This document shows, piece by piece, positions 4,535 through 62,381 of a stretch of 64,000 nt of DNA; positions within the stretch are counted from its first letter, which is position 1; each line of letters opens with the position of its first letter. Both the position numbers and the translations under genes were made by a program. This DNA comes from a virus (Duplodnaviria; Caudoviricetes), in IMG/VR virus record IMGVR_UViG_3300035698_007626, positions 708 through 64,707 of that record. One strand, 5' to 3'. A model generated the notes under the pieces. It saw nothing but the letters and a program-made list of their open reading frames with translations, was not told where the DNA came from and searched no databases.

Positions 4535-4900
4535 TTAAATATCAAAACTACCTTCGGCCTGCTGGTCGTTTACTTCTGTGCCCGTATCCTTGTCCAGAAT
4601 ACGCAGCTTACTGGCAGGCGTCTCTGTGACGGACACCCCCCACTCCCCGTTAACCTCCTCTGCTACGAACTTAAGGTATGAAAACTTAGAGCTACTCACA
4701 AGCTCCGAGTTAACATGTTGAATTTCATAAGCTTTTCGGTATCGCTGTAGTTTAAACTTCAACGACTGCGCCTCTTTCTCGCAGACGCAGGGCACGAAAA
4801 TAGCCCCGTGACCTTCGTCACTTCGACGGATGGCAGTCTCTAAAATCCCCAGCAAATGCGGATGATCCGCCAACCGGTAGCTCTCTGGTTTAAATGGCAA
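4535..4900 (-). CDS. Hypothetical protein
   Basis: 121-aa ORF, AAGGAG RBS before a TTG start. Confidence 0.55.
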   Translation of the reverse strand: MPFKPESYRLADHPHLLGILETAIRRSDEGHGAIFVPCVCEKEAQSLKFKLQRYRKAYEIQHVNSELVSSSKFSYLKFVAEEVNGEWGVSVTETPASKLRILDKDTGTEVNDQQAEGSFDI

Positions 4901-5083
4901 ACCCTACTCCTTTAGTTACTCCCACCGTCCCCCACGTACATCTTGGTGTGTCTCATGATCTCTTCGGCGTCCAACATATCCCAGCCCGCATCCAGTAAAT
5001 CTTCCCGAAACTGGTACTCTTCAAGATCTCCTGAACTAAATAGCGCAACTGCGCGCACCATATTCAAAGTTTTAATGTCCGGC

Positions 5084-5112
5084 ATTGTACCCCACTTTCA
5101 GGCGTTTGTCAA
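5084..5112 (-). promoter_or_regulatory. sigma70 promoter
   Basis: TTGACA-N17-TACAAT. Confidence 0.75.
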
Positions 5113-37739: not shown

Positions 37740-38717
37740 ATGGCATATGGTATCCAAGCTCTGCAGTCGCCGACCCGGATGCCGCGCAATCCGGCCCCTG
37801 CTGCAAAACAGCTGGCGGCGTCGGGGCGTGGGGGCGACGATTCAGTTGCCCATCTTACCGAGGGTGAAATGATTATCCCGGAGTCTTTCCAGACGCCCGG
37901 TGTCATGGCCCTCCTGTCCAAAGAGATGCGTCAAAAGGGTGCCAACCCCGCCGAATACCAAGTAGGCAGTGAGCACGCCTCCATTAACCCCACCACCGGC
38001 CTTCAGGAGTTCGCCGACCGATTCGGGCAGGCGCGTGACCGGGCCGAAGTAGACAGTTTCCAGCGCTTCATGGATCGGGGCGTGACCATCGGTAGGCGCT
38101 TCGCCGACTGGGACGAAGAGTCGGGAGGCCCGCTCCCGTCCTACCTGGGTGCTCAGCAAAACGAAGATCTAAACCAGCTCATGGTTGAGTACGGCCTCGG
38201 CGGCTTTGAAGAGCCCACTATCGCCCCCGGCGCCCTGAACAGTCTGCGCGACATCTTCCAGGGTGGCGGCACCCCGCAGGGCGACCTTCAACACGCGGCG
38301 CTCGAAGCGGCTCGAGGCGGGTTCCAAGATCCGCGTGGCGGTTCCAACGTGAATGCCTCCCCCCTCAACGGCCTCGGCGGTCTGGGCGGTCAGGCGGCGG
38401 GCGGTCAACTACAGGCTATCCTTGACACGTACAACGCCGATCAGGGGGGCCCTCGCAACGAAAGCGACATCCAGCTTACAGACATCCTCACGGCCTACGG
38501 GGTGCCCGGCGCAGTCAATACCGCGCCTGACTACTCCAATATGGGCACCTATGGTGAACAGGGCGGCGAGCGCTCCTTGGCGCGCTTCACCATTCCGGGC
38601 GATCAGGTCCTCAGTGATGCCGAGGTCGAGCGACGTGGGGGCGCCGACGCCATCAGCAATCAGGTTGCAATGACACCATCCTACATGTTCTACGACATCC
38701 TGAGGGGCGACAGCTAA
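37740..38717 (+). CDS. Internal virion (ejection) protein
   Basis: GRGGD..VAHLTEGE and SINP.TGL.EF motifs; Gly/Gln-rich. Confidence 0.6.
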   Translation: MAYGIQALQSPTRMPRNPAPAAKQLAASGRGGDDSVAHLTEGEMIIPESFQTPGVMALLSKEMRQKGANPAEYQVGSEHASINPTTGLQEFADRFGQARDRAEVDSFQRFMDRGVTIGRRFADWDEESGGPLPSYLGAQQNEDLNQLMVEYGLGGFEEPTIAPGALNSLRDIFQGGGTPQGDLQHAALEAARGGFQDPRGGSNVNASPLNGLGGLGGQAAGGQLQAILDTYNADQGGPRNESDIQLTDILTAYGVPGAVNTAPDYSNMGTYGEQGGERSLARFTIPGDQVLSDAEVERRGGADAISNQVAMTPSYMFYDILRGDS

Positions 38718-39730
38718 TGGTAATAGGTGTAGGTACCGGCCTAGCAATCTCGGCGGGCCTCGGGCTTGCCTCCAGCGTCCTTGGTGAAAATAGCGGCCCT
38801 TCCAGCTACGCTGACGCCACTCAAACGATTGTCAATGAGCTCCCGTCTTATCTGCGTGGCCCGACTTCGCGGCTGGCGCAGTCTGCCGAAAGCCTCGTAG
38901 CAAACGACCCCTATCAACCCTATCAAGGCCAGCGCATTGCCTCACTCACACCAGACCACATCAGCGGCTTCAACACGGCGCGCGACGCCTCGGGCATCGG
39001 GGCTATGCGCGTGGGCTCAGGCTACGAGATGGCCTCGCAGGCGGGGGCGCCGGTCGGCGGTCAAGACATTAATCGTCTCTTCAACCCGTACCTCTCCCTC
39101 GTCGGCCAGCAAGCCGAGCGGGAACTCAGCCGCCAGAACCTCCAGCAGCGCAACGTAGACGGTGCGCGGGCTGTGCAGGCAGGCGCATTCGGTGGCGCGC
39201 GGCACGGTATTGTTGATGCAGAGCGGGAGCGCAATCATACGCGCGGTCTTAGCGACCTCTATGAGCGGCTCTATGCAGGCGGCTATGATCGGGCTCTCTC
39301 AGGGGCTCAGACTGATAAGGCGCGAGGCCTTCAGAGCGGAATTGCTCAAGGCCAACTTGGTGTACAAGGTCAGCAGACGGCTTTCCAAGACACGGCCCAG
39401 CAGATCGGCATCGGCCAACTGCAACAAGAACAGACTCAGCGTAACCTCAATCTCGGTTACACGGACTTCCAGAATCAGCGGCGCCACCCCTATGAGCAGC
39501 TTGAGTTCCTCACGCAGACCCTCGCGGGCAACCCCGGCGCGCGTACCATGTCGACTTCCCAGATTAGCTCGACGCCCCGTTACGATCCCTCTGCCCTGCA
39601 GCAGGGCCTTGGCACCGGCATTGCCACCCTAGGGGCGCTCTCTAACTTCGGGGCTTTCGGACAACAGGGCAGCGGTGTTGCGGGTCTCCAGCAGTCGCCG
39701 AACTTTTACCTTAATGGAGCACCCCAGTAA
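38717..39730 (+). CDS. DNA transfer / ejection protein
   Basis: YQPYQGQRIA, NPY, AGAFGG.RHG, Gln-rich, hydrophobic Gly/Ala termini. Confidence 0.7.
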   Translation: MVIGVGTGLAISAGLGLASSVLGENSGPSSYADATQTIVNELPSYLRGPTSRLAQSAESLVANDPYQPYQGQRIASLTPDHISGFNTARDASGIGAMRVGSGYEMASQAGAPVGGQDINRLFNPYLSLVGQQAERELSRQNLQQRNVDGARAVQAGAFGGARHGIVDAERERNHTRGLSDLYERLYAGGYDRALSGAQTDKARGLQSGIAQGQLGVQGQQTAFQDTAQQIGIGQLQQEQTQRNLNLGYTDFQNQRRHPYEQLEFLTQTLAGNPGARTMSTSQISSTPRYDPSALQQGLGTGIATLGALSNFGAFGQQGSGVAGLQQSPNFYLNGAPQ

Positions 39731-40692: not shown

Positions 40693-43600
40693 ATGGTTCA
40701 GTATGTTGATCTGGGAGGCGGTGTTTACGTTGAGTACCCCGACTCCCTGTCCAAGAGCGAAATAGACGCAGACCTTCGCTCCGAAAGTTTCAAAGCCCAG
40801 ATGGGCGAACAGGGTCTCGATCTCGTTATCGACGACTCGCAGCAAGTCTCGGAAGACCAAGGCTTTGCCGACATTGTGGCCAACAACTTTTCGCGTGGCC
40901 TCAAAACCGGTTGGCAGGGTCTCACCACGGACCTCGCAGCCGCTGGCGCCATCGACCCTGATTGGGCGTCGCGCCTCATTGCCTCAGGTGAAATCGAGAA
41001 ACGCCAAACAGAGATGCCGCGCGACCTGCGCGATTTCTATTCCATGGAGGGGTGGCGCGAATCCCTCTGGCAAGTCCTTTCAAATCCAGTAGACGTCGGC
41101 CTCGCCCTCACCGCTGAGGGTCTGGGCACAAGTGTCGTGCCCCTGTTGGCGGGCGTTGGCGGCGCACTAGCGGGCAGCCAAGCGGGCCCCGTGGGCGGTA
41201 CAGTCGGTCTGGCGGCGGGCGTAGGCATTGGCTCATTCATGGTTGAGGCGGGCGGCAGTATGGTCGACCTCATGATGGAGGAGGGCGTTGAGCTTACGAA
41301 CGCCGAGGCCATCGCGGGCCGGCTCGTGGACTCTGAGTTCATGGAGCGCGCTATTAAGCGGGGCGTCACCAAGGGTGCCGTGGTCGGTGCCTTAGACGCA
41401 GCCTCGGCTGGCGTCGCAGGACGCATCATTGCAGCCGCCGCTAAGAAAACCCTAGGGACGCGCGTTGCCGCCGTCTTCGGTGAACTCGGCGTACAGGGTG
41501 GCGCGGGCGGCGGCGGCGAAGCGCTCAGCCAGCTCGCCATTGGTGAAGAGATTTCGCCGCCCTCAGTCCTTGCTGAGTTCTTCGGGGAGATTGTACCGGG
41601 CATAGGCGAGATCGCCATCAACAAGATGGTCTCCCAGTCCAACCAGCGCGACGATGAAAAAGCTGACACCAACGTCACGGGCGGCACTGTATTCAGTGAT
41701 AACCGCACCGATTCCCTGCGCGGTAAAAAAGCCAAGTACGAGGACATCGATAGCCCCGTTACGCTAGCGGCCACCTTCGAAACCTCAGGGCAGAAGAAGA
41801 TGATGTTGCGGCTCCGCGATGGCAGCGTTATTGTTGTACCCTACGACCCCGCAAAACTCACCGCCATCAATACCAAGCCTGCCGCCCCAGCCGAACAGGA
41901 CGGTCCCCCCTCACAATCTACGGCCACTCCCCCCTCAAAGAAGCCACCCGCACCCCCCGCACCCCCCGCACCAGCGCAGCCGGCGGCCACTCGCGATGCC
42001 CCGCTGCCCAGCGTTGAGGAGATCCTTGCGGGGCGCCAGCGCACTGCAGTAGACGAAGTCACGCAAGACTACATGGACACCCCAGAGGCCTCAGCCATCC
42101 CGGACGTGCCCCTGCTGGCGCTGCCTGCCCCAGTCTTGCCTGAAGTAACTGCCGGCGCTGAAGAGCTCCTGATTGCCAACGACATTGACCCCTCGGCCAT
42201 TACAGGCACCGGCAAGGACGGGCGCATCATTAAGCGCGATGCCACTAACTACCTCAAGGAACAGCTCTCCGCCGCTCCCCCCTCACAGCCCTCCGCCGCT
42301 GCCCCAGAAGCCCCAGAAGCCCCAGAAGCCCCAGAAGCCCCGGCCTTCCCACATATTGATTCGGATGATTTGGCATTTTTGCAGGCCCAAGGGACGCCCC
42401 CGGAAATCTTGCAGGAACTCACGGCTGCCGATGCGGCCTCAATGGTCCGTACTCTGAAGGTAATTGAAGAGGACGCTGCCGCCCTCGCAGCCCCTGAGCC
42501 CACGCCCGAGCCCACGCCGCCGAAGAGCGTTGAGGACACGTTGCTTGAGAGCGGTATGACGCCTGAGCAACTTGAGGCCCTTACTCCCGAAGACAAGGCC
42601 GAACTCGTTGAATTACTGGGCACACAAGAAGAGGTACTGCCGGACCCCGACCAACTTGCCGACGACTTCAATGCGGAAAATTTTGACGCTGAAACGGTGG
42701 ACGCTGAGCTTGAGGCGTTCGCGGCGGAAATGGATAAACCCAAAGCCACCGAGGAGCGCCAGCACCACCCCGATGCACCCCCAAAAACAAAGGTGGCCGT
42801 AAAAGATAAACCAATTACACAACCCACGGTTGCTAATGTTGTGCGCCAAGTGGATGGTGTGGACTATAACATCAATTACGCCTCAGGGCTCATTGAGCGC
42901 GTTGATGGGGAAAAGACCACGTCAGGGCAGAAGAAAGCTGTGCGCAACAAGCTGGGACTGCCGCCCCCGCGCAACATTGATTACACCCCAGAGGAGGTGG
43001 AGATTGATGGCAAATTATTCCGTTACCACCCCGGCTCAGGGGCGGTCTCTCGGTTTGCAGCCCCCTTAACTGAGGGGGGAAAGGGCCACTGGCGAAAGGC
43101 GGGCGAGGCGGCCTCCGCAGAAGTGCGCACGAAGATTGGTGCAGGCAAGGTCCGGCGCAGTGCTCGCATCCCCGGTTGGTCGCCGCCGCGTCGTATGAAC
43201 GATGTGCAGCGCATCCTCGCCGACCTGCGCAAGTGGGGCCTCAATGGCCGCGTCCTGCCGCGCCTTGTCATGGGCAAGGTTTACGATAATGAAGGCAACA
43301 TCGTTGGGGCCCTGTGGGACCCGGTGAAGAAAATCATCACTATAGACGCGATGCGGCCCGACATGTATAACTTGTGGCGCCACGAGGCCTTTCACGCCAT
43401 GCACGACATGGGGTTCTTCCCCGAAGTTGAGCGGCGGGCCTTGGAGCAGATGGTTCCCGTGTGGATGGAGCAATTCAATATTCGCGAGCGCTGGGCCGAG
43501 TACAATCTCACCGAAGACGAGTTGGCGCGCGAGGCGGAGGCCGAAGCGTTCGCCGCCTATGCACAGGGCTTCTATCACCCCAACGGCGCCATCGGTTATA

Positions 43601-46600
43601 TCTTCCAGCGTATTGCCGACTTTGTGCGCTGGCTGCGCGGGCACTTCACATCTGACGGGGGCGCCGCATACAAGGTCACCGAACAACTCTTCAACCAGAT
43701 TGAGGGGGGAGCATATAGCAACACCTTGGCGCTCAACATGGAGGAGACGGCCATCCTCGAAATGATGGACTCCATGGTGGATGCGTCGCCGCAGATGCGC
43801 GAGGAGATGCTGGACCGCATGGTTGAGATGGGGCTTAATCAGACCTCGCCCTACTCGCCGCACGTCAACGCCAATGCCAACGCGGGGCGCATTTCGCGCG
43901 CGTCCCCCGCCGACTTCAAGCAGTGGTTTGGCGATTCCCAAGTCACCCATCCCGACGGGACGCCCGCCCTAGTCTACATCAACCGCGATGGCGCGCCGGT
44001 CTACGGGCCGGCCACCACGTCCTTTGTCTACGGCACCGGCGTGCCCGCTGGGCCTACGCAGAATCGGGGCTTCGTCTCGAACTCCCCCCTCGGAGCGGCC
44101 AATTTGAAGCCGGCCTTTCTGCACATCGCCAATCCGGTGCGCGTCTTCGGCTTAGGGGCCGGCCCCATCAACATGGTGCGGCAGCTGATCGGCGACCAGC
44201 CCAAGACCTCGCAGGTCCTCGATGGGCCCGAGATTACAATCAACCCGGTCTTCACCGTGCAAGAGGGTGCGCTTCTCATCGAGCAGATGACGAAGAGCCC
44301 CAAGCGCCAGATGGACCTCCTGCAGAAAGCGTTAAAGAACAAGGGCTACGACGGCCTCGTTTATCACAATGCGGCGGAGTCCCCCCTCAATCCCACGGAT
44401 TTGTGGATGCCGTTCGATAGCAAGCAGGTGCGGCCTGCCATGGACGTCAAGGGGCGCGATCTTCGGCAGTCTTCCAACATTAAACCCCGGCGCTCCGCCG
44501 CGACCGGCCTTGATGATGCGCCCGGCGCCTCCACTGCCCAGCGCTCCAGCATCGTCAAGCAGGCGCTTAACGTGGTGCAGCATGCCTCACGCACCAGCGC
44601 GGACAAAATTGACAGCCCTCAGAAACTGTCGCGCCTCGGCATGTGGGTGCACTCGCTGCGGCACGTTGCCCAAGAGTTCACGGACTTTGCTGACTTCTAC
44701 GCATGGACAGACGTTCTGCGCACCACCCGCAACACGGTCGCCAACGAGGGCTCGGTCCTCATTAGGCCGCTGGGGCGCATCTCGGACGAGCAGCGTCACG
44801 TTGTCCATAAGGCCATGGAAATCTCGCAGATGTTTCCGGGCAAGTATGCGCCAAACGAGAACGGCCAAATTGTATTTGTGGCCCCGGCAGAATTGCCCCA
44901 CGTGGGGATGGAGTCGGAAGTCATTGCGAACGAAGTAGTCATCCTAGAGAATGAGACTGCCGAGGCCTACATGGCCGCGCAGCAGACCATGGATTATGCG
45001 CTCAATGAGCTGAAGCGGGCCTACCTGTCGCGCCAGACTGATAACATTCGCAACGTCCTGCAGCGGCTCCACGAGGTTGGCGTCACCACGGTTTCGCCGA
45101 CACAGGCTGAGGATATGGATGCGGCCATTGCTAACTCCCTGCAAATCCCGGCGCCCGGCAATGTGACAGACGACTTCATTGAGTCGATGACCCCGGCGCA
45201 GTTCCGGGCCTTGCACGACCACGTGCGCGTGTTGCTTAACGGGTTCTTCGGGGGCGTCCCTGATGCCACATACAGCGAAACACTAGAGGCTCTCCAGCAG
45301 CACTATACGCGCGAGGACGGCTCTAATCCCGAGGCAACCACCTTCACAGCGCTCACCGAATTAACCAATGAGCTACAAGAAATCCGCACTGCCCTGAACC
45401 AGTTCGAAGGTTATGGCAAAGTAGACTATGTGCCATTCATGCGCTTCGGCCAACACTACGTCGAGGTGCGCTCCATTGACGAAGACGGCAAACCCGGCAA
45501 GCTCCTGCACTATGAGTTCATTGAGTTCAATCCGTGGGAGAAGGGGCCGCTGTGGCAACGCAAGGCGCGCAAGGCCATCACGCGGCTCAAGCAGCAGTAC
45601 CCGGACGCGCACGTCGAGAACAAGGTGCGGCGGGCCACTTTCGACTCATTGCGCAAGGTGGCCGGCGACGAGTTCTCGCAGATCGACTACGCCATGCAGT
45701 TCATGTCAGGGGCCCAGCAGGAGTTTTACGGCGCATTCAAGCGCAACGCAGAGGCGGCCCTCTCGGCGCGCGGCTTCAAGAATATGCTGCGGGCGCGTAA
45801 GGGTGTCTCAGGCTACAGTACCGACTTTACGCGGGGCCTCTTACAGTATCTCATTGGGGTGTCTGGCTACGTGTCAAAGATGCGGTACCAGCCACACATT
45901 GATGCTGCCGTTAATCGTATCGAGACCAACACAGACACGGACGCCAATCTAGCTAAGCTGGCGCGCGAGAGCCGTGACTACATCCTTTCCCCCGAGGAAG
46001 AATACCAGACGTGGCGGAAGTGGGGCTTCATCTGGTTCCTTGGAGGCAACATCTCCTCGGCCTTGCTGCAGACCATGTCGCTTGTGCAGTTCACCGGCGC
46101 CCACCTATCCAGCTTCCTAGGCAACGCGGGCTCCATAAAGCACATGGCGCAGGCCTCTGCTGACATGACAAAGATTATGAAGGGGGGCGACCGGGAGCGG
46201 GAGTACTCAGATATTTTCATGGCCTTCAACAGGCTGCCGGAAGATGTGCGCAAGCACGTTAAGCGCGGCGTCGAGGAAGGTATTATCAAGCAGCAGGCCG
46301 TGCTCGAAGAGTCGGGCATGTCTCCCACCAGTGCCTCCACCGGCATTGCGCGCGCCAAGGGTACATGGGAAAACACCATTGTTAACAAGCTGCTGGCGGG
46401 GCCCTTCTCCACCTTCGAGACGTGGTCGCGCGGGGTGGCTTTCATTGCGGCTATTCGCGGCTCCACGCTGCCGAACGGCGAAATCAAGCCCGAGGTCCAG
46501 CGCAAGATCCTAGAGGTCTTCGGTAACAATGCGCTCTTCCTGCGCCTCATGCGTCAAGAGGGGGGAATAACTCCGTACCTATTTGCGCGCATGGTGGTGG

Positions 46601-47670
46601 ACGACACGTTCGGCGTCTATGGTAAGGGCAATCGCCCGTACATGATGCAGGGCATCGGCTCGGCCCTCTTGCAGTTCCAGACATACCCGCTGCAGATGTT
46701 CGAGTTTCTGAAGCGGATGCTCACCAGCCAAGGTGGCGCGGGCAAGGCGGCGTTCGCCAAGGTCATGCTCATGCTGTTCCTGACGGCGGGCCTGCGCGGG
46801 CTGCCGCTGGGCGACGACATGGCGGACTATTGGGAGTACTATAAGCGTACCTTTAGTGACGTCGATGACCCGCTGTCGCTTCAGTTGCGTGAGATGCTGA
46901 GCACTAACTTTGGCTTCTCCCCCTTCATGCAGGAGTTCATGGAGAACGGCCTGTTCAATGCGGCGGGCATTGATGTGCAGCGGCGCATCAGCCTCGGTGA
47001 GATGGTGGGCTCGGAGCAGGTCAAGGCGCTGCTCGGCGTGCGGGGTGGCGTGGACGAACTGCTCGGCGTGCCGGGCGCGTTGGCGTTTACCAGTGTCGGC
47101 AACTTTTACGAGCAGCAGCAACAGGGGCGGACCGTAGCGGCCCTCCAAAGTCTGATGCCCACCTTCTTGAAGAACGCCACCACCGGCCTATACACCCTCG
47201 GCGATTCAGGCCTCACGACGGCGGCGGGCGTTCGACTTATCAACCCCGAGGAAATCAATGCTGGCGAGCGCTACTCTAAGTTCTTCGGCTTTAACCCCAC
47301 GCGCCATGCCCACGCGCGCGAGCAGGAGTGGATGCGCAACCGGCTCAGCAGTGCGGTCGAGCAGGCCAAGTACCGATACGAGCGGCGTTACGAGGGTCAC
47401 ATGTTAGATTACATCGAGGCCATGCACGAGGACGACGAGGGCAATATGCGCTCGGCTAAAGAGTCTATGAACGACATTGTGGAGCAAATACTAGAACACA
47501 ACAGCAAGGCAAAACCTGAGCATTACATTGCGTTTAACTTGACAAACATTATGCTGCGTGTTATGATTGCCCGCAATCCTAAGATGAGGAACTTCCAGAT
47601 TAAAGAGCTGGCCCGGCCTCGCGCAATGGGTATGGAAGACCTCTACTATAACAAAGGATTCAGAGAATGA
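40693..47670 (+). CDS. Large polyvalent internal virion protein (Gly/Ala membrane region, E3-binding domain, zincin HExxH, ART-PolyVal-like, PLxRFG-like)
   Basis: 2325 aa; IDPSAITGTGKDGRIIKRD, HEAFH, FKQWFGDS...KGYDGLVY...FDSKQV, YVPFMRFG.HYV. Confidence 0.8.
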   Translation: MVQYVDLGGGVYVEYPDSLSKSEIDADLRSESFKAQMGEQGLDLVIDDSQQVSEDQGFADIVANNFSRGLKTGWQGLTTDLAAAGAIDPDWASRLIASGEIEKRQTEMPRDLRDFYSMEGWRESLWQVLSNPVDVGLALTAEGLGTSVVPLLAGVGGALAGSQAGPVGGTVGLAAGVGIGSFMVEAGGSMVDLMMEEGVELTNAEAIAGRLVDSEFMERAIKRGVTKGAVVGALDAASAGVAGRIIAAAAKKTLGTRVAAVFGELGVQGGAGGGGEALSQLAIGEEISPPSVLAEFFGEIVPGIGEIAINKMVSQSNQRDDEKADTNVTGGTVFSDNRTDSLRGKKAKYEDIDSPVTLAATFETSGQKKMMLRLRDGSVIVVPYDPAKLTAINTKPAAPAEQDGPPSQSTATPPSKKPPAPPAPPAPAQPAATRDAPLPSVEEILAGRQRTAVDEVTQDYMDTPEASAIPDVPLLALPAPVLPEVTAGAEELLIANDIDPSAITGTGKDGRIIKRDATNYLKEQLSAAPPSQPSAAAPEAPEAPEAPEAPAFPHIDSDDLAFLQAQGTPPEILQELTAADAASMVRTLKVIEEDAAALAAPEPTPEPTPPKSVEDTLLESGMTPEQLEALTPEDKAELVELLGTQEEVLPDPDQLADDFNAENFDAETVDAELEAFAAEMDKPKATEERQHHPDAPPKTKVAVKDKPITQPTVANVVRQVDGVDYNINYASGLIERVDGEKTTSGQKKAVRNKLGLPPPRNIDYTPEEVEIDGKLFRYHPGSGAVSRFAAPLTEGGKGHWRKAGEAASAEVRTKIGAGKVRRSARIPGWSPPRRMNDVQRILADLRKWGLNGRVLPRLVMGKVYDNEGNIVGALWDPVKKIITIDAMRPDMYNLWRHEAFHAMHDMGFFPEVERRALEQMVPVWMEQFNIRERWAEYNLTEDELAREAEAEAFAAYAQGFYHPNGAIGYIFQRIADFVRWLRGHFTSDGGAAYKVTEQLFNQIEGGAYSNTLALNMEETAILEMMDSMVDASPQMREEMLDRMVEMGLNQTSPYSPHVNANANAGRISRASPADFKQWFGDSQVTHPDGTPALVYINRDGAPVYGPATTSFVYGTGVPAGPTQNRGFVSNSPLGAANLKPAFLHIANPVRVFGLGAGPINMVRQLIGDQPKTSQVLDGPEITINPVFTVQEGALLIEQMTKSPKRQMDLLQKALKNKGYDGLVYHNAAESPLNPTDLWMPFDSKQVRPAMDVKGRDLRQSSNIKPRRSAATGLDDAPGASTAQRSSIVKQALNVVQHASRTSADKIDSPQKLSRLGMWVHSLRHVAQEFTDFADFYAWTDVLRTTRNTVANEGSVLIRPLGRISDEQRHVVHKAMEISQMFPGKYAPNENGQIVFVAPAELPHVGMESEVIANEVVILENETAEAYMAAQQTMDYALNELKRAYLSRQTDNIRNVLQRLHEVGVTTVSPTQAEDMDAAIANSLQIPAPGNVTDDFIESMTPAQFRALHDHVRVLLNGFFGGVPDATYSETLEALQQHYTREDGSNPEATTFTALTELTNELQEIRTALNQFEGYGKVDYVPFMRFGQHYVEVRSIDEDGKPGKLLHYEFIEFNPWEKGPLWQRKARKAITRLKQQYPDAHVENKVRRATFDSLRKVAGDEFSQIDYAMQFMSGAQQEFYGAFKRNAEAALSARGFKNMLRARKGVSGYSTDFTRGLLQYLIGVSGYVSKMRYQPHIDAAVNRIETNTDTDANLAKLARESRDYILSPEEEYQTWRKWGFIWFLGGNISSALLQTMSLVQFTGAHLSSFLGNAGSIKHMAQASADMTKIMKGGDREREYSDIFMAFNRLPEDVRKHVKRGVEEGIIKQQAVLEESGMSPTSASTGIARAKGTWENTIVNKLLAGPFSTFETWSRGVAFIAAIRGSTLPNGEIKPEVQRKILEVFGNNALFLRLMRQEGGITPYLFARMVVDDTFGVYGKGNRPYMMQGIGSALLQFQTYPLQMFEFLKRMLTSQGGAGKAAFAKVMLMLFLTAGLRGLPLGDDMADYWEYYKRTFSDVDDPLSLQLREMLSTNFGFSPFMQEFMENGLFNAAGIDVQRRISLGEMVGSEQVKALLGVRGGVDELLGVPGALAFTSVGNFYEQQQQGRTVAALQSLMPTFLKNATTGLYTLGDSGLTTAAGVRLINPEEINAGERYSKFFGFNPTRHAHAREQEWMRNRLSSAVEQAKYRYERRYEGHMLDYIEAMHEDDEGNMRSAKESMNDIVEQILEHNSKAKPEHYIAFNLTNIMLRVMIARNPKMRNFQIKELARPRAMGMEDLYYNKGFRE
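47539..47567 (+). promoter_or_regulatory. sigma70 promoter inside the 3' end of the large gene
   Basis: TTGACA-N17-TATGAT with extended TG. Confidence 0.6.
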
Positions 47671-57277: not shown

Positions 57278-57447
57278 GCATCCGCAAACTTAATATTGCT
57301 GCGGACCTGATAGGGTTCCGTCTCGTTGTTGTAAACGCTCTCGACCCAGACGCGGACGTGCCGGTAGCCTTTGCGGTGCCAGAAGTTTTCAATGCGCTCG
57401 GCCAACTCCCACGAAAGTCGGCGGCTGTACAAGTAATTATTCTTCAT
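57274..57447 (-). CDS. Small conserved protein (57 aa, below cutoff)
   Basis: MKNNYLYSRRLSWELAERIENFWHRKGY...YQVRSN; overlaps both neighbours. Confidence 0.55.
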   Translation of the reverse strand: MKNNYLYSRRLSWELAERIENFWHRKGYRHVRVWVESVYNNETEPYQVRSNIKFADA

Positions 57448-59977
57448 GTTGTTGGTTCCACTGCTCTACTGTCATAAGGTCCTTCCAATTGCGCCCAATT
57501 TCAATGGCGCTTGGTACAACCATCGTCCGCCCGTGAATGGTCAGCGGATTTGTAAGGCATTCTAGCACGCGCGGAACGAGAGTGTCAAATGATTTTTCTT
57601 TAATCTGCCCTACGACACTGTCGTGCACCTGCCCAAATAAGGCAAGGGGTTCGCCGGCGCGCTCTAACTCATTCCAGATGCGATAAAGCCCCACGTTCAG
57701 CAAATCGCCGATGGTGCTCTGCGGGTCGTACGCAATAGCCTCGCGCTGGGTAGCTGCCGTCGATGCCCTTCCCAAGAACACGCGCCGTCGCCCGAGGGCC
57801 GTAGTCAAAGAGGACGTAGTCTCCAGCTGGTGGGCCACTCCGTCATGCCATGTTCGAATGCCGGGGAACGCTCCCTCCACAAAGACGACCTTGCCTTCGC
57901 TGTCGTTGGCCTCTATCAGGATATCAAATCCCGCATCGGGGTCCTGTTTGTGCCAGCGCTCAAGGTCGCGCCGTGACATGGCCGCGCCGTAGTACCGCGC
58001 CTGAAACAGCGCCGCATACCGTTTATGAATGCGCAGGTGCCGGGCGAGGCTGTCCACAGTCAGACCATAGTTCGCCCCGTGGCCGGCGCGCTTGCAAATA
58101 TCTCTATATGAAAAGTCCCGGTAATACTTCTCTTCGGCCATGGCGCGATCTCGTTGTAGGTCGCCGGTCCAATCGCGGTGGGGCCAGATCATCTTTACCA
58201 CAGTGGTGTGTAGGTCGCCCTCTTCGCACGCCTTGATGTAGCCCTCGTCCTCAGACAGATATGCCACGACGCGCGACTCGGCCTGCTCAAGGTCAGCATC
58301 GAACAGCACGTAGCCGGGGTCCGGCACAAAGATGCCGCGCAAGTCTTTGGTCACGTTCTGCAAATTGGTGCCGGTGTTGAAGGGGCTGCTGCTACTGGAC
58401 CAGCGTCCCGTATTATGAACAAGCAAACCTGCGGCGGAATATTGTGGCGGACTGCTACTGGGCATAGTACAATCGTAAACAGCACCACGCCAAGGCTTAA
58501 CAGCAACCACTTCGTTGTAGTTAAATTCTGCTGAGGTTTTTCTAAATCTATTTAGAAGTGTCGCAACTTTGTCAAGTTTACTCGACTGTACAAATCCACA
58601 TAACTTAAGAAACTTCGCCGTTTCTCTGCGAGGTAGAACTAACTTAAAGTTGTAACTTATAGACTCAATGCCTAAATATTTAAGCATCGTTTGTATCTGT
58701 GTACGCAGCTTGTCTGAAGCACTTCCAAAAATCAATCCGTTCTTTTTAGAGGTAACGTGACTGTCTAACGTCAAACCGCGCAAAAGAGCACGTAACGCTA
58801 TTGGAGTTCCCCGCAGCGCCCACTTTGGGATAGTCTTACTCAATGCGGTTGCCCATACAGGTTCCAACATATCGTACAAGGGGCGATGTGATACATGCGC
58901 GTAATCCTTGTAACAACGCGGTACAGCCTCAGGGAATAAATATTTCACTAACTCAACAAAGCGAGCTTGAACCTCGGGGTCGCGGTTGCTGATACGAATA
59001 CTGTATCCACCGTTGCTGGAATGTAAAGTACCGTCGGCAAGTAACATTCCAAGAAGTTCATAAAATTCTACTGGAGTGCTTTTTGAGTAAGGAGTGACAA
59101 CTGTTCCGAACAAAGTGTTTGGAATGCTATTAACTAAACTTTGACCAAGCACCAAATTTCGGGCTTCAACCCAACCAATCCTTTCAACTGCAAAGGGATG
59201 ATTTTTAGAACACCGAAGGGTGGTGCCATTAGCTAAAAGAATTTCCAAACCCTCTGTGTTCTTGTAACAAACTTTTTTAACAGGATTTACAAACTCATTA
59301 CCATTCCAAAGATGTGTTTTATAACTTGTGCTGTTATAAATATCCGCGAGAGGTCGAATGCCGGAAGCAGTTACAACTAACGTATCCCCCGACAGACACT
59401 CAGTGCCCGCCACGTTGTAGCTGCACCGCATGCGCCCATCACCGTCGAGCGTGGACTTGAGCACCGATAGTTTCTTAACGGTGTCTCGAATAGCCAACAC
59501 GAACAGCGCCAGCGGGCGCCCCCGTGGGTACTGCCGGGCTACGGCCTCAAGGGCCTCGCGGTCAGTGCTGACCTTCATCTTGCCCTTTGCGTTGCGCATC
59601 TGAGGGGGGATCGCGAGTTCCTCATAAAGGATGCGCTTAAGCTGCACCGGCGAGTTAACATTAATGTCCTTGCCCCATACGGCGTTGGCGATCTTGTTCG
59701 TTGCCGCCATCAGCAGTTTCTGGGAGGCCTCCAGTTCCACGGTGCGCGCGGCGATCACGTCCTTGTCCACGGCCCAACCGCGCAGGATCAGATTGATAGC
59801 GCACGCCGCCATGCCGCGCTCGAAGTCATAGGTGCGCCGGGCGTGCTTGTCCACCTGTGGCAGCAGGGCGCTGTAGATCTCGTGAGTCAGCGCGCAGTCT
59901 AGCCCGTTGTAGACCCACAGGCGCTGCTCATCGTCCAGCTTCAAGTCATCCAGCTGCGAGCTTTTTATAACCCTCAT
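57437..59977 (-). CDS. polA: Family A DNA polymerase (polymerase portion plus ExoIII motif) with intein
   Basis: YNGLD, NSPVQL, TGRWSS, NLQN, motif A DLEQAE.R, motif B R..CK...HG.NYG, motif C QVHDS. Confidence 0.9.
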   Translation of the reverse strand: MRVIKSSQLDDLKLDDEQRLWVYNGLDCALTHEIYSALLPQVDKHARRTYDFERGMAACAINLILRGWAVDKDVIAARTVELEASQKLLMAATNKIANAVWGKDINVNSPVQLKRILYEELAIPPQMRNAKGKMKVSTDREALEAVARQYPRGRPLALFVLAIRDTVKKLSVLKSTLDGDGRMRCSYNVAGTECLSGDTLVVTASGIRPLADIYNSTSYKTHLWNGNEFVNPVKKVCYKNTEGLEILLANGTTLRCSKNHPFAVERIGWVEARNLVLGQSLVNSIPNTLFGTVVTPYSKSTPVEFYELLGMLLADGTLHSSNGGYSIRISNRDPEVQARFVELVKYLFPEAVPRCYKDYAHVSHRPLYDMLEPVWATALSKTIPKWALRGTPIALRALLRGLTLDSHVTSKKNGLIFGSASDKLRTQIQTMLKYLGIESISYNFKLVLPRRETAKFLKLCGFVQSSKLDKVATLLNRFRKTSAEFNYNEVVAVKPWRGAVYDCTMPSSSPPQYSAAGLLVHNTGRWSSSSSPFNTGTNLQNVTKDLRGIFVPDPGYVLFDADLEQAESRVVAYLSEDEGYIKACEEGDLHTTVVKMIWPHRDWTGDLQRDRAMAEEKYYRDFSYRDICKRAGHGANYGLTVDSLARHLRIHKRYAALFQARYYGAAMSRRDLERWHKQDPDAGFDILIEANDSEGKVVFVEGAFPGIRTWHDGVAHQLETTSSLTTALGRRRVFLGRASTAATQREAIAYDPQSTIGDLLNVGLYRIWNELERAGEPLALFGQVHDSVVGQIKEKSFDTLVPRVLECLTNPLTIHGRTMVVPSAIEIGRNWKDLMTVEQWNQQHEE
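58412..59398 (-). mobile_element. Intein (329 aa) with LAGLIDADG homing endonuclease in PolA
   Basis: AGTE|CLSGDT ... CSKNHPF ... LLGMLLADG ... LLRGLTLDS ... VYDC ... LLVHN|TGRWSS; AT-rich. Confidence 0.92.
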
Positions 59978-60465
59978 TTGAAATCCAGTACTACGAGTTT
60001 ATCGCCCAGCATCTCGCGCGCCTTGGCCTCCAGCGCGCCGGTTGGGCCGTTGGGGTAGACGTAGTTGGGCACGAAGACGCGCGTAATGCCCACCTGATGT
60101 ACTAACGAAGCACAATGCTCACAAGGATGCAGAGGATAAACAAAAAGGCTGTGACCTCGTAGGTCGCGCTGCGCAAAAAGGATCACATTTTCTTCAGCAT
60201 GGATCACCCTCTTCCATTTGGTTTCGCGCACCATGTCTACTAGTGCGTCATCGTCGTAGCCCTGCGGCAAGCCGTTGAAGCCAACACTCACCACCCGGTT
60301 GTTGGGGGCTGCGATGACGGCGCCCACCCCGTGGCCGGGGTCCTTACTCCATGACGCCGCCAGCTTTGCCAACTCCATAAACCGCTGCTGCCATTTAGAC
60401 GGGGTCACGCACAAGCCCTCCGCCGGTCTCGTCTCGGGAAATGAATTGAACAGCATATGTCTCAT
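59974..60465 (-). CDS. dCMP deaminase
   Basis: SKDP...VGAVI, GFNG.P, HAEEN, PCEHC. Confidence 0.92.
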   Translation of the reverse strand: MRHMLFNSFPETRPAEGLCVTPSKWQQRFMELAKLAASWSKDPGHGVGAVIAAPNNRVVSVGFNGLPQGYDDDALVDMVRETKWKRVIHAEENVILFAQRDLRGHSLFVYPLHPCEHCASLVHQVGITRVFVPNYVYPNGPTGALEAKAREMLGDKLVVLDFK

Positions 60466-60467
60466 AG

Positions 60468-60986
60468 TTATACCAAGCTCTTTTCAATGGCGCGAATGAG
60501 AATGGCCGCGTATCCGATGACGCCGCGCAATTCATGGACGGCCTTTTTCTGATCCCCCCTCTGGATCATACCAAAGGCCTCGTTGGCCTTCTTGATAATC
60601 TGGCCCACGGGGTAGCCCGCGCCCGCCAGCCGCACCTCTGACGCCCACGACTGCTCGTCCCACGAGCCCGCGCCCGCCCCGTGGCGCTCGGTGCCTTTGC
60701 TGGCAATATTGTTTTCGAGAGCCTCGTTAAGGACGCGCCGCAACTCGCTGTAGTAATCCACCTCGGCATCTTGGAAAGCGCGTCCGGCGAGTGGGTCGAG
60801 GGCGCCGCCGCTTGGTCTTTCCCCGAGGTTGTTTTCGTAATGAGCAGGGTATCGGCTATTCAGTACTGCTTCGGCCATTGGTTTGTCTTCCCCTCGACAC
60901 ACGCATTTTGCGGGCCTCTTGTCAAGCAGTTTCTCCTGCTGTTGTTTGGATGTTTGGATCTCGTTGTAGGCCTTGGTGAGACTCAT
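60468..60986 (-). CDS. Conserved phage protein (KG.ERH family, all-alpha)
   Basis: L..VLNEA....SKGTERH...EQ...GYP.GQ.IKK..E...EL.G.I.YAA. Confidence 0.6.
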   Translation of the reverse strand: MSLTKAYNEIQTSKQQQEKLLDKRPAKCVCRGEDKPMAEAVLNSRYPAHYENNLGERPSGGALDPLAGRAFQDAEVDYYSELRRVLNEALENNIASKGTERHGAGAGSWDEQSWASEVRLAGAGYPVGQIIKKANEAFGMIQRGDQKKAVHELRGVIGYAAILIRAIEKSLV

Positions 60987-60987
60987 T

Positions 60988-61224
60988 CTATTCTCCATCA
61001 AGAGTTTTCTCCACAAACCATGCCGGCAAGCAGGCAAGCTCACATACTAAGTAAAAGTTTTCGCCCCGGTCTTGGAGCCAAGTGCGGGCACGCTCTCCCG
61101 TCTTGTTGTCTTTGACGGTGTCCTCAACCATTTGGTCAAGGAACGCCCGCCACATACGCACCATAGCTGGGTCGTAGGACGACACCAACACAGGTATTTT
61201 GGCAAAGGTATTTGGTCTTTTCAC
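60988..61224 (-). CDS. Hypothetical protein
   Basis: MWRAFLDQ..ED...A..WL....F..VCELA.L motif of small phage proteins. Confidence 0.55.
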   Translation of the reverse strand: MKRPNTFAKIPVLVSSYDPAMVRMWRAFLDQMVEDTVKDNKTGERARTWLQDRGENFYLVCELACLPAWFVEKTLDGE

Positions 61225-62381
61225 TCGTCCCGCTTATTGCTTTTGTGGAACTTGACCATAGTTTTCCAAGGGCGCTCGTTCGTGTAGAGCGAAGCCAGCA
61301 TGCCTAAGTCTTTACGCATCTCCGGCTGGAGGGCGTGATGCATGTGCATCGTATCCTCCACGTTGCCCCGCACATAGATCCCCATGATCCGGGCCAGCCA
61401 TGTAATATCATATGTGCAATTCTGCGCCAGCTTGGGAATGGTGGGGTCTTCTAGAATTTTCTTTACCCACCCCCAAGCCACCGCCTCACTTTCGGCACTC
61501 GACCAGTAGCTGCCGCTGTCCATGTTCTTATCACAGAACGGAATGACGAACGACACGTTGTCGTTGGGCGAGAAGCCAATACAAGTAATTTGCGAAACCA
61601 TGTCCGTCTCGATGTCGAATGACAGGGGTGTGGTGCTGCCTTGCATAGGCTCGACCATCTCGTTGTAGAACTTCTCGATGTCGGCAAGTTGGGGTTCTAT
61701 CCACACTTCGCGTTCGATGCGCTTAATGGTGCGCGTGTTGCTCTCGGCCTGCGCCTTGATAAGATCGGCAATGAATACAGGTCGCCCGCTCCAGCCTCGC
61801 ACGACTGCGTCCGGGTGGAGGGCGGGCACTACCTTCCATTGCTTCGAGGGGTGGAACCAATCATTGGTGTAGATGGTGTGGCCTCTGAATTTAGAGATGC
61901 CTTCTTCACCAGTGAGAGCCCAGAGCGCGACTCCGCCTAGAGCGATAATTACATGAGGATCAAAACGAGTAATTTCCTCACGCAGTCGATCCAGTGCATC
62001 CTCGCGCTCGGGCTCCACGTAGCCTAACTTGGACAGCGGCCACCGTGGTTTCCACCCCTCGAACTGTTTAACTTGTGTGCGCTTAACGAAGAAGCGCCCT
62101 AGGTCGTCGCCCGCTGGCTTGTATTCAAATACGTTTGTCAGCAGGCAATCTTCGCGCTTGATGTCGGCGCGGCGTAAACATTCATTTAACAACTCGCCGC
62201 CCGACCCGGCGAACGGGTGTCCATTCAAAACCTCGTCGGCGCCGGGTGCCTCACCAACTATGGCGATCTTGCCATCGTCCCTTGTGGGCCAGACGGCAGG
62301 CACCGGGCGCTTTACTGCATCTTCTCTACCCTTAGAAATAATTTGCCGCATAATATTTGTCGCCCATTTTAATTGCTTCAT
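61221..62381 (-). CDS. Uracil-DNA glycosylase (family 4-like) domain fused to the N-terminal part of a DEDDy 3'-5' exonuclease; N-terminal half of a split SPO1-type PolA
   Basis: IVGEAPG..E...G.PF.G.GG.LL, TNV, LHP; then ExoI SFDIET, ExoII QN..YD, DTM...H. Confidence 0.85.
   Translation of the reverse strand: MKQLKWATNIMRQIISKGREDAVKRPVPAVWPTRDDGKIAIVGEAPGADEVLNGHPFAGSGGELLNECLRRADIKREDCLLTNVFEYKPAGDDLGRFFVKRTQVKQFEGWKPRWPLSKLGYVEPEREDALDRLREEITRFDPHVIIALGGVALWALTGEEGISKFRGHTIYTNDWFHPSKQWKVVPALHPDAVVRGWSGRPVFIADLIKAQAESNTRTIKRIEREVWIEPQLADIEKFYNEMVEPMQGSTTPLSFDIETDMVSQITCIGFSPNDNVSFVIPFCDKNMDSGSYWSSAESEAVAWGWVKKILEDPTIPKLAQNCTYDITWLARIMGIYVRGNVEDTMHMHHALQPEMRKDLGMLASLYTNERPWKTMVKFHKSNKRDE

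What the first reader, a model, noticed from the sequence alone, without database searches (positions are those of the whole stretch)
42145..42345. E3-binding (peripheral subunit-binding) domain mimic inside the ejected polyvalent protein
Seen: the 2325-aa internal virion protein contains TAGAEELLIANDIDPSAITGTGKDGRIIKRDATNYL, flanked by Ala/Pro linkers (PPAPPAPPAPAQP upstream, APEAPEAPEAP downstream). Known: this matches the E3-binding domain of 2-oxoacid dehydrogenase E2 subunits (A..L....ID.S.I.GTG.DGRI.K.D; GTGKDGRI is typical of SucB), which also sits between Ala/Pro linkers and docks E3/E1. Inference: on ejection the protein could recruit or titrate host dihydrolipoamide dehydrogenase, tying DNA entry to TCA/NADH metabolism, or aim the neighbouring zincin and ART-like domains at these complexes. 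I do not recall this domain in descriptions of phage polyvalent proteins.
Basis: partly seen in the sequence, partly recalled or inferred. Interest (0 to 1): 0.75.

Follow-up and report, generated by a model that had tools for sequence, protein, structure and literature searches.

The report
E3-binding-type mini-domain in phage virion giant
A giant phage virion protein carries one real copy of the tiny docking domain that normally holds metabolic enzyme complexes together, but it lacks the positive charges that domain uses to grip its usual partner, so its target is probably something else.

Summary
Residues ~483-527 of the 2325-aa ORF (40693-47670, +) are a genuine peripheral-subunit-binding domain (PSBD). 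Pfam E3_binding scores above its cut-off. The best solved relative is the human E2b subunit-binding domain, E 4e-6. The AlphaFold2 model (pLDDT 84) matches PSBDs almost exclusively among the top 31 PDB ranks, at about 1 A rmsd. The domain lies between low-confidence Pro/Ala-rich linkers.

The proposed function, capture of host E3, is not supported. The two helix-1 positions that are Lys/Arg in 128 of 132 E2-borne PSBDs are Glu-Glu here. None of the 26 detectable homologous polyvalent proteins carries the domain.

PSBDs without basic helix-1 residues also occur outside E2. They are found in small phage proteins placed just after the capsid gene. They are also fused to bacterial NusA, IF-2 and L21.

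My best reading is a flexibly tethered docking bead whose binding face has been altered and whose partner is unknown. No searched paper describes PSBDs in phage proteins. This is a new variant of a known domain, of moderate interest.

The parts
40693..47670 (+). 2325-aa polyvalent-type virion protein (P0002)
   Evidence: Single open frame. The C-terminal part matches phrog_11358 and F116-like 'PLxRFG domain/structural/internal virion' proteins. It lies after a homologue of DNA ejection protein phrog_4287 (38717-39730) at the end of the structural module.
40705..41625 (+). N-terminal module (aa 5-311) shared with other polyvalent proteins
   Evidence: BLASTP to P0170-P0177 covers only aa 5-311 of the first 860 residues, at 28-40% identity.
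41878..41994 (+). Pro/Ala-rich linker (aa ~396-434, includes PPAPPAPPAPAQP)
   Evidence: Read from the sequence. P+A fraction is 0.40-0.70 in 20-aa windows.
42079..42138 (+). Pro-rich stretch immediately upstream of the domain (aa ~463-482)
   Evidence: Read from the sequence. pLDDT is below 50 at aa 465-486 in the single-sequence model.
42139..42273 (+). PSBD / E3_binding domain (aa 483-527): helix 1 at aa 487-495, GTGKDGRI loop, helix 2 at aa 514-527
   Evidence: Pfam PF02817 above its cut-off. PDB phmmer E 4e-6. AF2 pLDDT 84.2 with helices at model residues 14-22 and 41-54. Foldseek PDB ranks 1-31 are PSBDs or PSBD-containing E2 models, at rmsd 0.8-2.5 A for the isolated domains.
42268..42348 (+). 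Ala/Pro/Glu linker (aa ~526-552, (APE)n)
   Evidence: Read from the sequence. pLDDT is below 50 at aa 528-549.
42361..42732 (+). Two further small acidic helical modules (aa ~557-599 and ~613-680) separated by a PEPTPEPTPP linker
   Evidence: Single-sequence AF2 gives helices with pLDDT about 64-81, and pLDDT below 50 at aa 600-610. Each 20-aa window is net negative. No family was assigned.
43240..43704 (+). Zincin-like region (aa 850-1004, HEAFH at aa 897-901)
   Evidence: BLASTP to P0004 aa 1227-1372, E 3e-8, with HEAFH aligned to HESMH. No Pfam hit.
44095..44451 (+). Weak ART-PolyVal-like region (aa ~1135-1253)
   Evidence: PF18760 at 14 bits, E 0.09, below its cut-off of 31.2. It is collinear with the P0004 region that gives PF18760 at 26.4 bits, also below the cut-off.
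45346..47568 (+). Conserved C-terminal region (aa 1552-2292)
   Evidence: phrog_11358, E 1.4e-48. tblastn finds 43 phage records, all covering only the C-terminal aa 1563-2318. 26% identity to P0004 over aa 1133-2302.

Best explanation
The segment is a real peripheral-subunit-binding domain: a ~40-residue, two-helix mini-domain of the E3_binding family. It was inserted once, in this lineage, into the variable, acidic, Pro/Ala-rich middle of a polyvalent virion protein. It hangs between flexible linkers as one of several small helical beads.

Its loop and second helix cannot be told apart from SucB-type PSBDs of aquatic Proteobacteria. Its first helix carries Glu-Glu where E2 domains carry the Arg/Lys that grip E3 or E1. 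That places it with a class of non-E2 PSBDs found in small phage head-module proteins and fused to bacterial NusA, IF-2 and L21.

I infer that it works as a tethered protein-protein docking module with a re-purposed binding face. After the protein leaves the capsid, or while it is held inside, the domain would anchor the polypeptide and its zincin and ART-like parts to a partner other than the canonical acidic site of E3.

Shown: domain identity, fold, linkers, loss of the basic residues, uniqueness among homologues, and the existence of the non-E2 class. Inferred: that it binds anything, that the partner is not E3, and that the protein is packaged and ejected.
For: Domain identity: Pfam PF02817 at 25.6/31.5 bits against a cut-off of 23.7. 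There is one match in the whole record. All 24 PDB sequence hits are PSBDs. The AF2 model has pLDDT 84.2. Foldseek PDB ranks 1-31 are PSBDs or PSBD-containing E2 chains, with probability 0.85-1.00 down to rank 28.

Bead-on-linker layout: pLDDT is below 50 exactly in the Pro/Ala runs at aa 465-486, 528-549 and 600-610.

Altered binding face: human E2b 'VRRL' aligns with 'AEEL'. K/R is present at one or both of the two positions in 64 of 64 E2 PSBDs from genome loci and in 64 of 68 from representative E2s. It is present in 2 of 11 phage PSBDs and 2 of 4 NusA/IF-2/L21 PSBDs. The pair is 'EE' in the NusA and IF-2 copies, as in the window. The helix-1 half of the domain has net charge -5.

Helix 1 is scored better by the non-E2 model. 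It adds 7.8 bits under the phage+NusA/IF-2/L21 model and 2.9 bits under the E2 model.

The non-E2 class is real. Twelve viral loci encode small proteins with a C-terminal PSBD; the three scanned against Pfam gave E 1e-8 to 5e-12. In the loci examined, these proteins sit in the head module. Among the top 150 profile hits, 47 have the E2 catalytic domain and 54 a lipoyl domain. Others are fused to L21, L20, IF3_N, kinases, RodZ_C or HTH_17. NusA, IF-2 and L21 fusions were confirmed with NCBIfam.

Lineage-specific insertion: 0 of 17 and 0 of 9 further homologous polyvalent proteins have a PSBD. They align only to aa 5-311, aa 850-1004 and aa 1133-2302.
Against: No binding partner was identified, so 'docking module' rests on what the fold does elsewhere.

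The loop and helix 2 score slightly better with the E2 model than with the phage+non-E2 model (46.0 against 43.7 bits). The best single relatives are SucB PSBDs, at up to 54% identity. Those E2 sequences were, however, pre-selected as the best of more than 600 pattern matches. A recent capture from a host sucB, with E3 binding retained through the conserved GRI motif, is therefore not excluded.

Four of 68 representative E2 PSBDs also lack K/R at both positions, so the rule is not absolute.

My division into E2 and non-E2 used crude recalled sequence motifs, and fragments of E2 genes sit in the 'non-E2' bin.

There is no direct evidence that the protein is in the virion or is ejected. The host is unknown.
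Confidence: 0.5

Rival explanations
1. One reading: the domain mimics an E2 PSBD and binds host dihydrolipoamide dehydrogenase (E3) or E1. It would titrate that enzyme away from the PDH/OGDH complexes, or aim the zincin and ART-like domains at those complexes.
For: It is a bona fide PSBD by sequence and fold. The GTGKDGRI loop with its Arg-Ile is intact. The closest single sequences are SucB PSBDs of Gamma- and Alphaproteobacteria, e.g. L022 at 52% over 42 aa. The E2-only model scores the loop and helix 2 at 46.0 bits. The Ala/Pro linkers resemble E2 linkers.
Against: The two helix-1 positions that are K/R in 128 of 132 E2 PSBDs are Glu-Glu, a charge reversal. The Ser-Pro that starts helix 1 in most E2 copies is also absent. 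Basic residues around helix I are described as part of the conserved electrostatic binding site (PMC6270654, section 4.3). The same kind of helix 1 occurs in PSBDs on NusA, IF-2, L21 and phage head-module proteins, where an E3 link has no obvious rationale. No homologous polyvalent protein has the domain.
Confidence: 0.17
2. Passive bead: a linker-PSBD-linker piece was captured, for instance from a host sucB. It is kept only as a very small, fast-folding, soluble unit in a long acidic flexible region. That region would serve as a spacer or as charge ballast in a protein that must pass through the tail channel. The domain has no specific partner.
For: The domain is embedded in about 250 residues of net-acidic, Pro/Ala-rich sequence with other small helical units of no known family. 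It is absent from all 26 homologues, so it is not needed for the core function of this protein family. The canonical binding residues have been lost. GC3 over aa 451-750 is 0.59-0.63, against 0.73-0.85 further downstream, which hints at a different history. Titles of the matched PDB entries describe PSBDs as ultrafast folders.
Against: The fold-determining residues and the whole GTGKDGRI loop are fully conserved. The helix-1 pattern is not random: it matches that of other non-E2 PSBDs, including the identical 'EE' in the NusA and IF-2 copies. This suggests selection on a surface.
Confidence: 0.25
3. Chance resemblance or a mis-called frame: the peptide is not a real domain.
For: The domain is short, and Pfam matches only profile positions 13-34 of 36. 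Foldseek E-values do not go below 2.8e-3 because the domain is so small.
Against: The frame is an uninterrupted 2325-aa ORF. Three independent sequence tests are significant. The full-length alignment includes helix 1. The model is confident, and almost only PSBDs appear among the top 31 structural ranks.
Confidence: 0.02

Closest known systems
Peripheral subunit-binding domain (Pfam PF02817 E3_binding) of E2 chains of 2-oxoacid dehydrogenase complexes, especially SucB/E2o of Proteobacteria and human E2b (PDB 1ZWV, 3RNM)
   Same: The size, the two-helix fold and the G-T-G-K-D-G-R-I loop are the same, and the domain is flanked by Ala/Pro-rich flexible linkers. Identity reaches 52-54% to SucB PSBDs. 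The human E2b domain matches at E 4e-6 and about 1.2 A rmsd.
   Different: The chain has no lipoyl domain and no acyltransferase core. Helix 1 starts with Thr-Ala-Gly instead of Ser-Pro, and it carries Glu-Glu where 128 of 132 E2 copies have Lys/Arg. The helix-1 half is net -5 rather than basic.
Non-E2 PSBDs: small phage head-module proteins (viral loci L002-L021) and bacterial NusA, IF-2 and L21 fusions (L040, L052, L088)
   Same: These are stand-alone PSBDs outside dehydrogenases, often after an acidic or Pro-rich linker. In most of them helix 1 has no Arg. NusA and IF-2 of one Gemmatimonadota MAG carry the same 'EE' pair.
   Different: In these proteins the domain is C-terminal (N-terminal in IF-2) on small or housekeeping proteins. 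Here it is internal to a 2325-aa polyvalent protein. Identity to the window is only 35-50%. None has a known function, and I found no paper on them.
Polyvalent proteins of phages and conjugative elements (Iyer et al. 2017, PMC5512222)
   Same: It is a giant multidomain protein encoded in the virion module. It has a zincin-like motif, a weak ART-PolyVal-like region and a conserved C-terminal region shared with F116-like 'PLxRFG' proteins. The paper proposes that such proteins are packaged and injected with the DNA (abstract and passages).
   Different: In the paper's main text the terms E3-binding, dehydrogenase, lipoyl and peripheral subunit each occur 0 times (the supplementary domain tables could not be read). 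None of the 26 homologues found here has a PSBD.

Membership tests
PSBD / Pfam PF02817 E3_binding (domain family) | Profile match above the curated gathering score | tested here: met
   25.6 bits on the whole protein and 31.5 bits on the fragment, against a cut-off of 23.7. 31.6 bits in the six-frame search of the record.
PSBD / Pfam PF02817 E3_binding (domain family) | Fold of ~35-45 residues: two helices joined by a structured loop | tested here: met
   AF2 pLDDT 84.2, with helices at model residues 14-22 and 41-54. Foldseek PDB ranks 1-31 are PSBDs or PSBD-containing E2 chains; for example 3rnm_E has rmsd 1.2 A over 42 columns.
PSBD / Pfam PF02817 E3_binding (domain family) | Conserved G-[TS]-G-x-x-G-R-[IV] loop and Asp in helix 2 | tested here: met
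   GTGKDGRI and the following Asp are identical to, or aligned with, the solved PSBDs and the 12 phage copies.
E2-type PSBD that docks E3/E1 (functional class) | [quoted passage not shown] | tested here: not met
   The window has E-E where 128 of 132 E2-borne PSBDs have K/R at one or both positions. 'VRRL' of human E2b aligns with 'AEEL'. The requirement is stated in PMC6270654, section 4.3.
E2-type PSBD that docks E3/E1 (functional class) | Lies in a chain with lipoyl domain(s) and an acyltransferase core | tested here: not met
   No Biotin_lipoyl or 2-oxoacid_dh hit at E <= 1 in the 2325-aa protein.
E2-type PSBD that docks E3/E1 (functional class) | Flanked by flexible Ala/Pro-rich linkers | tested here: met
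   Pro/Ala runs lie on both sides and have pLDDT below 50.
E2-type PSBD that docks E3/E1 (functional class) | Physical binding to E3 or E1 | not testable with these tools
   This needs a binding measurement with proteins of the true host, which is unknown.
Polyvalent proteins (Iyer et al. 2017) | Very large protein combining disparate domains, encoded with virion genes of a portal-terminase phage | tested here: met
   The protein is 2325 aa. TerL, portal, MCP, tail and ejection-protein homologues lie upstream. Homologues carry PF18760, PF18796, PF18823, PF18853 and PF18857.
Polyvalent proteins (Iyer et al. 2017) | Zincin-like metallopeptidase and/or ART-PolyVal domain | tested here: inconclusive
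   The HEAFH motif aligns with a homologue's HESMH, but there is no Pfam hit. PF18760 scores only 14 bits, E 0.09.
Polyvalent proteins (Iyer et al. 2017) | Packaged in the capsid and injected with the DNA | not testable with these tools
   Inferred only from gene position and from annotations of distant C-terminal homologues as structural or internal virion proteins.

The most novel reading that the evidence does not exclude
PSBDs with an acidic or neutral first helix form a separate, widely recruited docking module whose conserved partner is not E3. Bacteria attach it to NusA, IF-2, IF-3, L20 and L21. That pattern points to a partner in or near the transcription-translation machinery. Phages have taken the module into head-module proteins and, here, into an ejected polyvalent protein. 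Under this reading the incoming effector is parked on the host's gene-expression apparatus at the moment of DNA entry.
Probability: 0.12. Interest if true: 0.75.

Novelty: new variant of a known kind. Interest (0 to 1): 0.5.

Why it matters
The PSBD is treated in the literature as the adaptor of 2-oxoacid dehydrogenase complexes. Finding it inside a phage virion giant, with its E3/E1-gripping charges reversed, shows the fold has a second life as a portable docking bead. The same altered face appears in phage head-module proteins and on NusA, IF-2 and L21.

If a common partner exists, it would define a new interaction hub, and a new way for an injected phage protein to find its place in the host. 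If instead the domain still binds E3, it would be the first virion-delivered protein aimed at central carbon metabolism. A simple binding experiment tests either outcome.

Tried and rejected
- Complex prediction. I submitted a dihydrolipoyl dehydrogenase dimer (from a Rhodobacteraceae genome locus, as a 20-row alignment) with the window's PSBD (aa 483-528, with a 12-row alignment). It returned 'no answer', with scores 0.21 and 0.00 against a mark of 0.32, and the controls were not run. This counts neither for nor against binding. The E3 was a stand-in because the host is unknown.
- Close relatives of the whole protein. No DNA match in 50,697 phage records. No pattern-confirmed relative in IMG/VR or in genome contigs.
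- PSBD against cultured phages by tblastn. There were only 9 marginal hits, with E >= 0.01. The best one, H42, an UNVERIFIED_ORG record, is a full-length E2 gene with lipoyl, PSBD and catalytic parts, so it is cellular-type.
- Foldseek against BFVD viral structures. No convincing PSBD; the best hit had E 0.36 and probability 0.77.
- Further degenerate PSBD copies in the protein. None found; there is one domain only.
- Origin of the domain. The E2 model and the phage+non-E2 model give similar scores (48.9 against 51.5 bits for the full domain; 46.0 against 43.7 without helix 1). I leave the origin open.
- Host. No tRNA, and none of the ten largest ORFs outside the virion module that I scanned matched an integrase family. 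TerL and a tail/stabilisation protein are only about 32-37% identical to Pelagibacter, Roseobacter and gammaproteobacterial phages. The host remains unknown.
- Literature. 0 papers for 'polyvalent protein' + 'peripheral subunit-binding'. Nothing relevant for E3_binding + phage, 'peripheral subunit-binding domain' + bacteriophage or 'E3 binding domain' + phage.
- I considered a DNA-binding, HeH-like role and rejected it as unlikely, because the domain and its surroundings are net acidic.
Full report
**1. What is there**

The window is almost the whole of a 64,707-base IMG/VR virus record, rated 100% complete. The ORF at 40693-47670 (+) is uninterrupted and encodes 2325 residues.

The downstream (APE)n linker directly follows the domain. 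The upstream PPAPPAPPAPAQP run (aa 418-430) is separated from the domain by about 50 residues, which hold a predicted helix and a second Pro-rich stretch.

**2. Is it a PSBD?** Yes, by four tests.

- Pfam E3_binding (PF02817) scores 25.6 bits on the whole protein and 31.5 bits on the fragment, against a cut-off of 23.7. Only profile positions 13-34 of 36 are matched.
- A six-frame search of the whole record finds this one place only, at 31.6 bits.
- phmmer against PDB sequences returns 24 sequences at E <= 1, all subunit-binding domains of E2 or E3BP. The best is human E2b (1ZWV, 3RNM) at E 4e-6, over 39 aligned residues that include helix 1.
- An AlphaFold2 model built on 13 aligned sequences has pLDDT 84.2 and two helices. 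In a Foldseek search of the PDB, ranks 1-31 are PSBDs or PSBD-containing E2 chains, typically at 0.8-1.5 A rmsd. E-values stay at or above 2.8e-3 because the domain is so small.

**3. Context in the protein and the genome**

The gene closes the virion module: TerL, portal, major head protein, tail fibre, a 'virion structural/stabilisation' protein and a homologue of DNA ejection protein phrog_4287 lie upstream, and an exonuclease follows. The rest of the genome encodes its own replication genes. There is no tRNA. TerL and the stabilisation protein are 32-37% identical to those of Pelagibacter phages HTVC023P and HTVC027P, Roseobacter phage CRP-901 and phage DSL-LC04. The host is unknown, and G+C is 55.6%.

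The protein is of the polyvalent kind.
- Its C-terminal part matches phrog_11358 and F116-like 'PLxRFG/structural/internal virion' proteins.
- The nearest proteins in 5.8 billion are P0003 and P0004, at 26-27% identity over half the query. They and other homologues carry polyvalent-protein domains.
- P0004 aligns only with aa 850-1004, a zincin-like region where HEAFH matches HESMH, and with aa 1133-2302.
- A second search with aa 1-860 found nine further proteins, which share only aa 5-311.

The PSBD therefore lies in the non-conserved middle of the protein. None of the 17 + 9 homologues has a PSBD: phmmer/hmmsearch scores are all under 3 bits, and no PF02817 appears in their precomputed Pfam lists. 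The ART-like call is weak, with PF18760 at 14 bits and E 0.09.

A single-sequence model of aa 430-700 has low overall confidence (mean pLDDT 60.5). It is nevertheless informative in pattern. Confidence falls below 50 exactly in the Pro/Ala runs. It rises in a helix at aa 441-461, in the PSBD, and in two further small helical modules at aa ~557-599 and ~613-680. The whole stretch from aa 440 to 680 is strongly acidic. The picture is beads on a flexible string.

**4. The binding face**

In the alignment to the solved human E2b domain, 'VRRL' of helix 1 aligns with 'AEEL'. I tabulated these two columns.

| PSBD source | K/R at one or both positions |
|---|---|
| Bacterial genome loci whose ORF has the E2 catalytic motif | 64 of 64 |
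| Representative proteins with that motif | 64 of 68 |
| Phage PSBDs (distinct sequences) | 2 of 11 |
| NusA / IF-2 / L21 PSBDs | 2 of 4 |

The NusA and IF-2 copies carry 'EE', as the window does.

With a cruder split, the figures were 85 of 91 domains in proteins with E2 motifs and 169 of 221 in the remainder, which includes E2 fragments.

A review states that the PSBD surface is rich in positive charges needed to bind the peripheral subunits. [quoted passage not shown] From memory, not from any call, the hot-spot residues in the Geobacillus domain are Arg135, Arg139 and Arg156. Only the equivalent of the last, the Arg of GRI, is kept here.

**5. PSBDs outside E2**

Scans of IMG/VR with the domain and with an alignment of it found 16 loci, 12 of them distinct beyond the first four. 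They encode small proteins of about 85-175 aa with a C-terminal PSBD. The three I scanned against Pfam gave E 5e-12 to 1e-8.

In the loci I annotated, these proteins lie in the head module, in two arrangements:
- TerL, protease/major-head fusion, PSBD protein, portal (L003), with the same ORF sizes and order in L011, L014 and L016.
- Protease, decoration protein, major head/virion structural protein, PSBD protein (L021).

The ESM Atlas lists clusters of 143, 98 and 73 small, mostly viral proteins with E3_binding. The scores are 0.84-0.86, so this is a lead only.

A profile of the 13 sequences, run against 1.84 billion representatives, gave 8569 hits at E <= 0.001. Of the best 150, all match E3_binding, 54 have a lipoyl domain and 47 the E2 catalytic domain. 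The rest include fusions to ribosomal proteins L21 and L20, IF3_N, protein kinases, RodZ_C and HTH_17.

Among the 80 best bacterial genome loci, most are SucB-type E2 genes. One Gemmatimonadota MAG, however, has NusA with a C-terminal PSBD, followed by IF-2 with an N-terminal PSBD. Two other Gemmatimonadota MAGs have L21 with a C-terminal PSBD.

**6. Origin**

The best single relatives of the window's domain are SucB PSBDs of Gamma- and Alphaproteobacteria, at up to 54% identity (52% over 42 aa in L022). The phage copies reach 47% and the NusA/IF-2/L21 copies 50%.

The model scores were:

| Model | Full domain | Without helix 1 | Added by helix 1 |
|---|---|---|---|
| E2 | 48.9 bits | 46.0 bits | 2.9 bits |
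| Phage + NusA/IF-2/L21 | 51.5 bits | 43.7 bits | 7.8 bits |

The loop and helix 2 look like SucB, and helix 1 looks like the non-E2 class. I cannot say whether the domain came from a host sucB and then changed, or came from the phage pool. The E2 set was pre-selected for likeness to the window, which favours it.

GC3 over aa 451-750 (0.59-0.63) is lower than downstream (0.73-0.85). This is a weak hint of mosaic history.

**7. What it does**

Shown: a real PSBD on flexible tethers, unique among homologues, with the canonical basic face replaced.

Inferred: it is a tethered docking module whose partner is not the canonical acidic site of E3 (confidence 0.5).

Rivals:
- A passive, fast-folding bead in an acidic spacer (0.25).
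- Chance resemblance (0.02).

That the protein is packaged and ejected is inferred from gene position. It also rests on the general proposal for polyvalent proteins (PMC5512222, abstract and passages).

**8. Novelty**

The main text of the paper that defined polyvalent proteins does not contain 'E3-binding', 'dehydrogenase', 'lipoyl' or 'peripheral subunit'. Its supplementary domain lists could not be read and might bear on this point. Four full-text searches found no paper on PSBDs in phage proteins. Cultured phage genomes gave only marginal tblastn hits, and the best is a cellular-type E2 gene on an unverified record. BFVD gave no convincing structural match.

The domain family is known. Its presence in a phage polyvalent protein, with a reversed-charge helix 1, is a new variant, and the wider non-E2 class appears to be undescribed.

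**9. Limits**

- The host is unknown.
- The E2 versus non-E2 split used simple recalled motifs.
- Only 150 of 8569 profile hits could be inspected.

Noticed in passing
L040:1453-3186 (NusA) and L040:3282-5912 (IF-2); L052:2494-3141 and L088:2115-3053 (L21): In Gemmatimonadota MAGs, NusA carries a C-terminal PSBD, the adjacent IF-2 an N-terminal PSBD, and ribosomal protein L21 a C-terminal PSBD. Each follows or precedes an acidic or Pro/Ala-rich linker. The NusA and IF-2 copies have Glu-Glu in helix 1, like the window. L20, IF3_N, kinase, RodZ_C and HTH_17 fusions appear among the top 150 profile hits.
   Followed up: partly
L003:5830-6120, L004:5800-6231, L021 ~4860-5111, L015:4602-5132, L010:114-584 and relatives L002-L020: These are small phage proteins (about 85-175 aa) with a C-terminal PSBD and no Arg in helix 1. 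In the loci I annotated they lie in the head module, in most of them just after the (putative) major capsid gene, in several unrelated module layouts. No PHROG family matches them.
   Followed up: partly
window 57437-59977 (-) and 61221-62381 (-), with 59974-60465 and 60468-61043 between: The DNA polymerase appears to be split into two ORFs. They match different parts of phrog_17 (positions 476-793 and 971-1242), and two small ORFs lie between them.
   Followed up: no
window 40693-42942 versus 42943-47670: GC3 is 0.59-0.71 in the first ~750 codons of the giant gene and 0.73-0.85 in the rest. This parallels the split into a non-conserved and a conserved part.
   Followed up: no
window 42793-43149 (aa ~700-820 of the giant protein): By eye there are two similar short segments, each ending in a basic helix-like stretch (around VDGVDYNINY... 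and IDGKLFRYHP...). No family was found in Pfam, and I did not test them as a repeat.
   Followed up: no
P0032 (472 aa, metagenomic representative): This is a Ser/Thr protein kinase followed by three tandem PSBDs with ordinary basic helix 1 (VRKLAEEHGVDL...). It is another non-E2 context, but one with the canonical binding face.
   Followed up: no
L102 (OR846616.1 21502-26582): A record labelled UNVERIFIED_ORG Enterococcus phage carries a full-length E2 gene (432 aa: lipoyl, PSBD, catalytic motif). It is probably bacterial DNA in a 'phage' record.
   Followed up: partly
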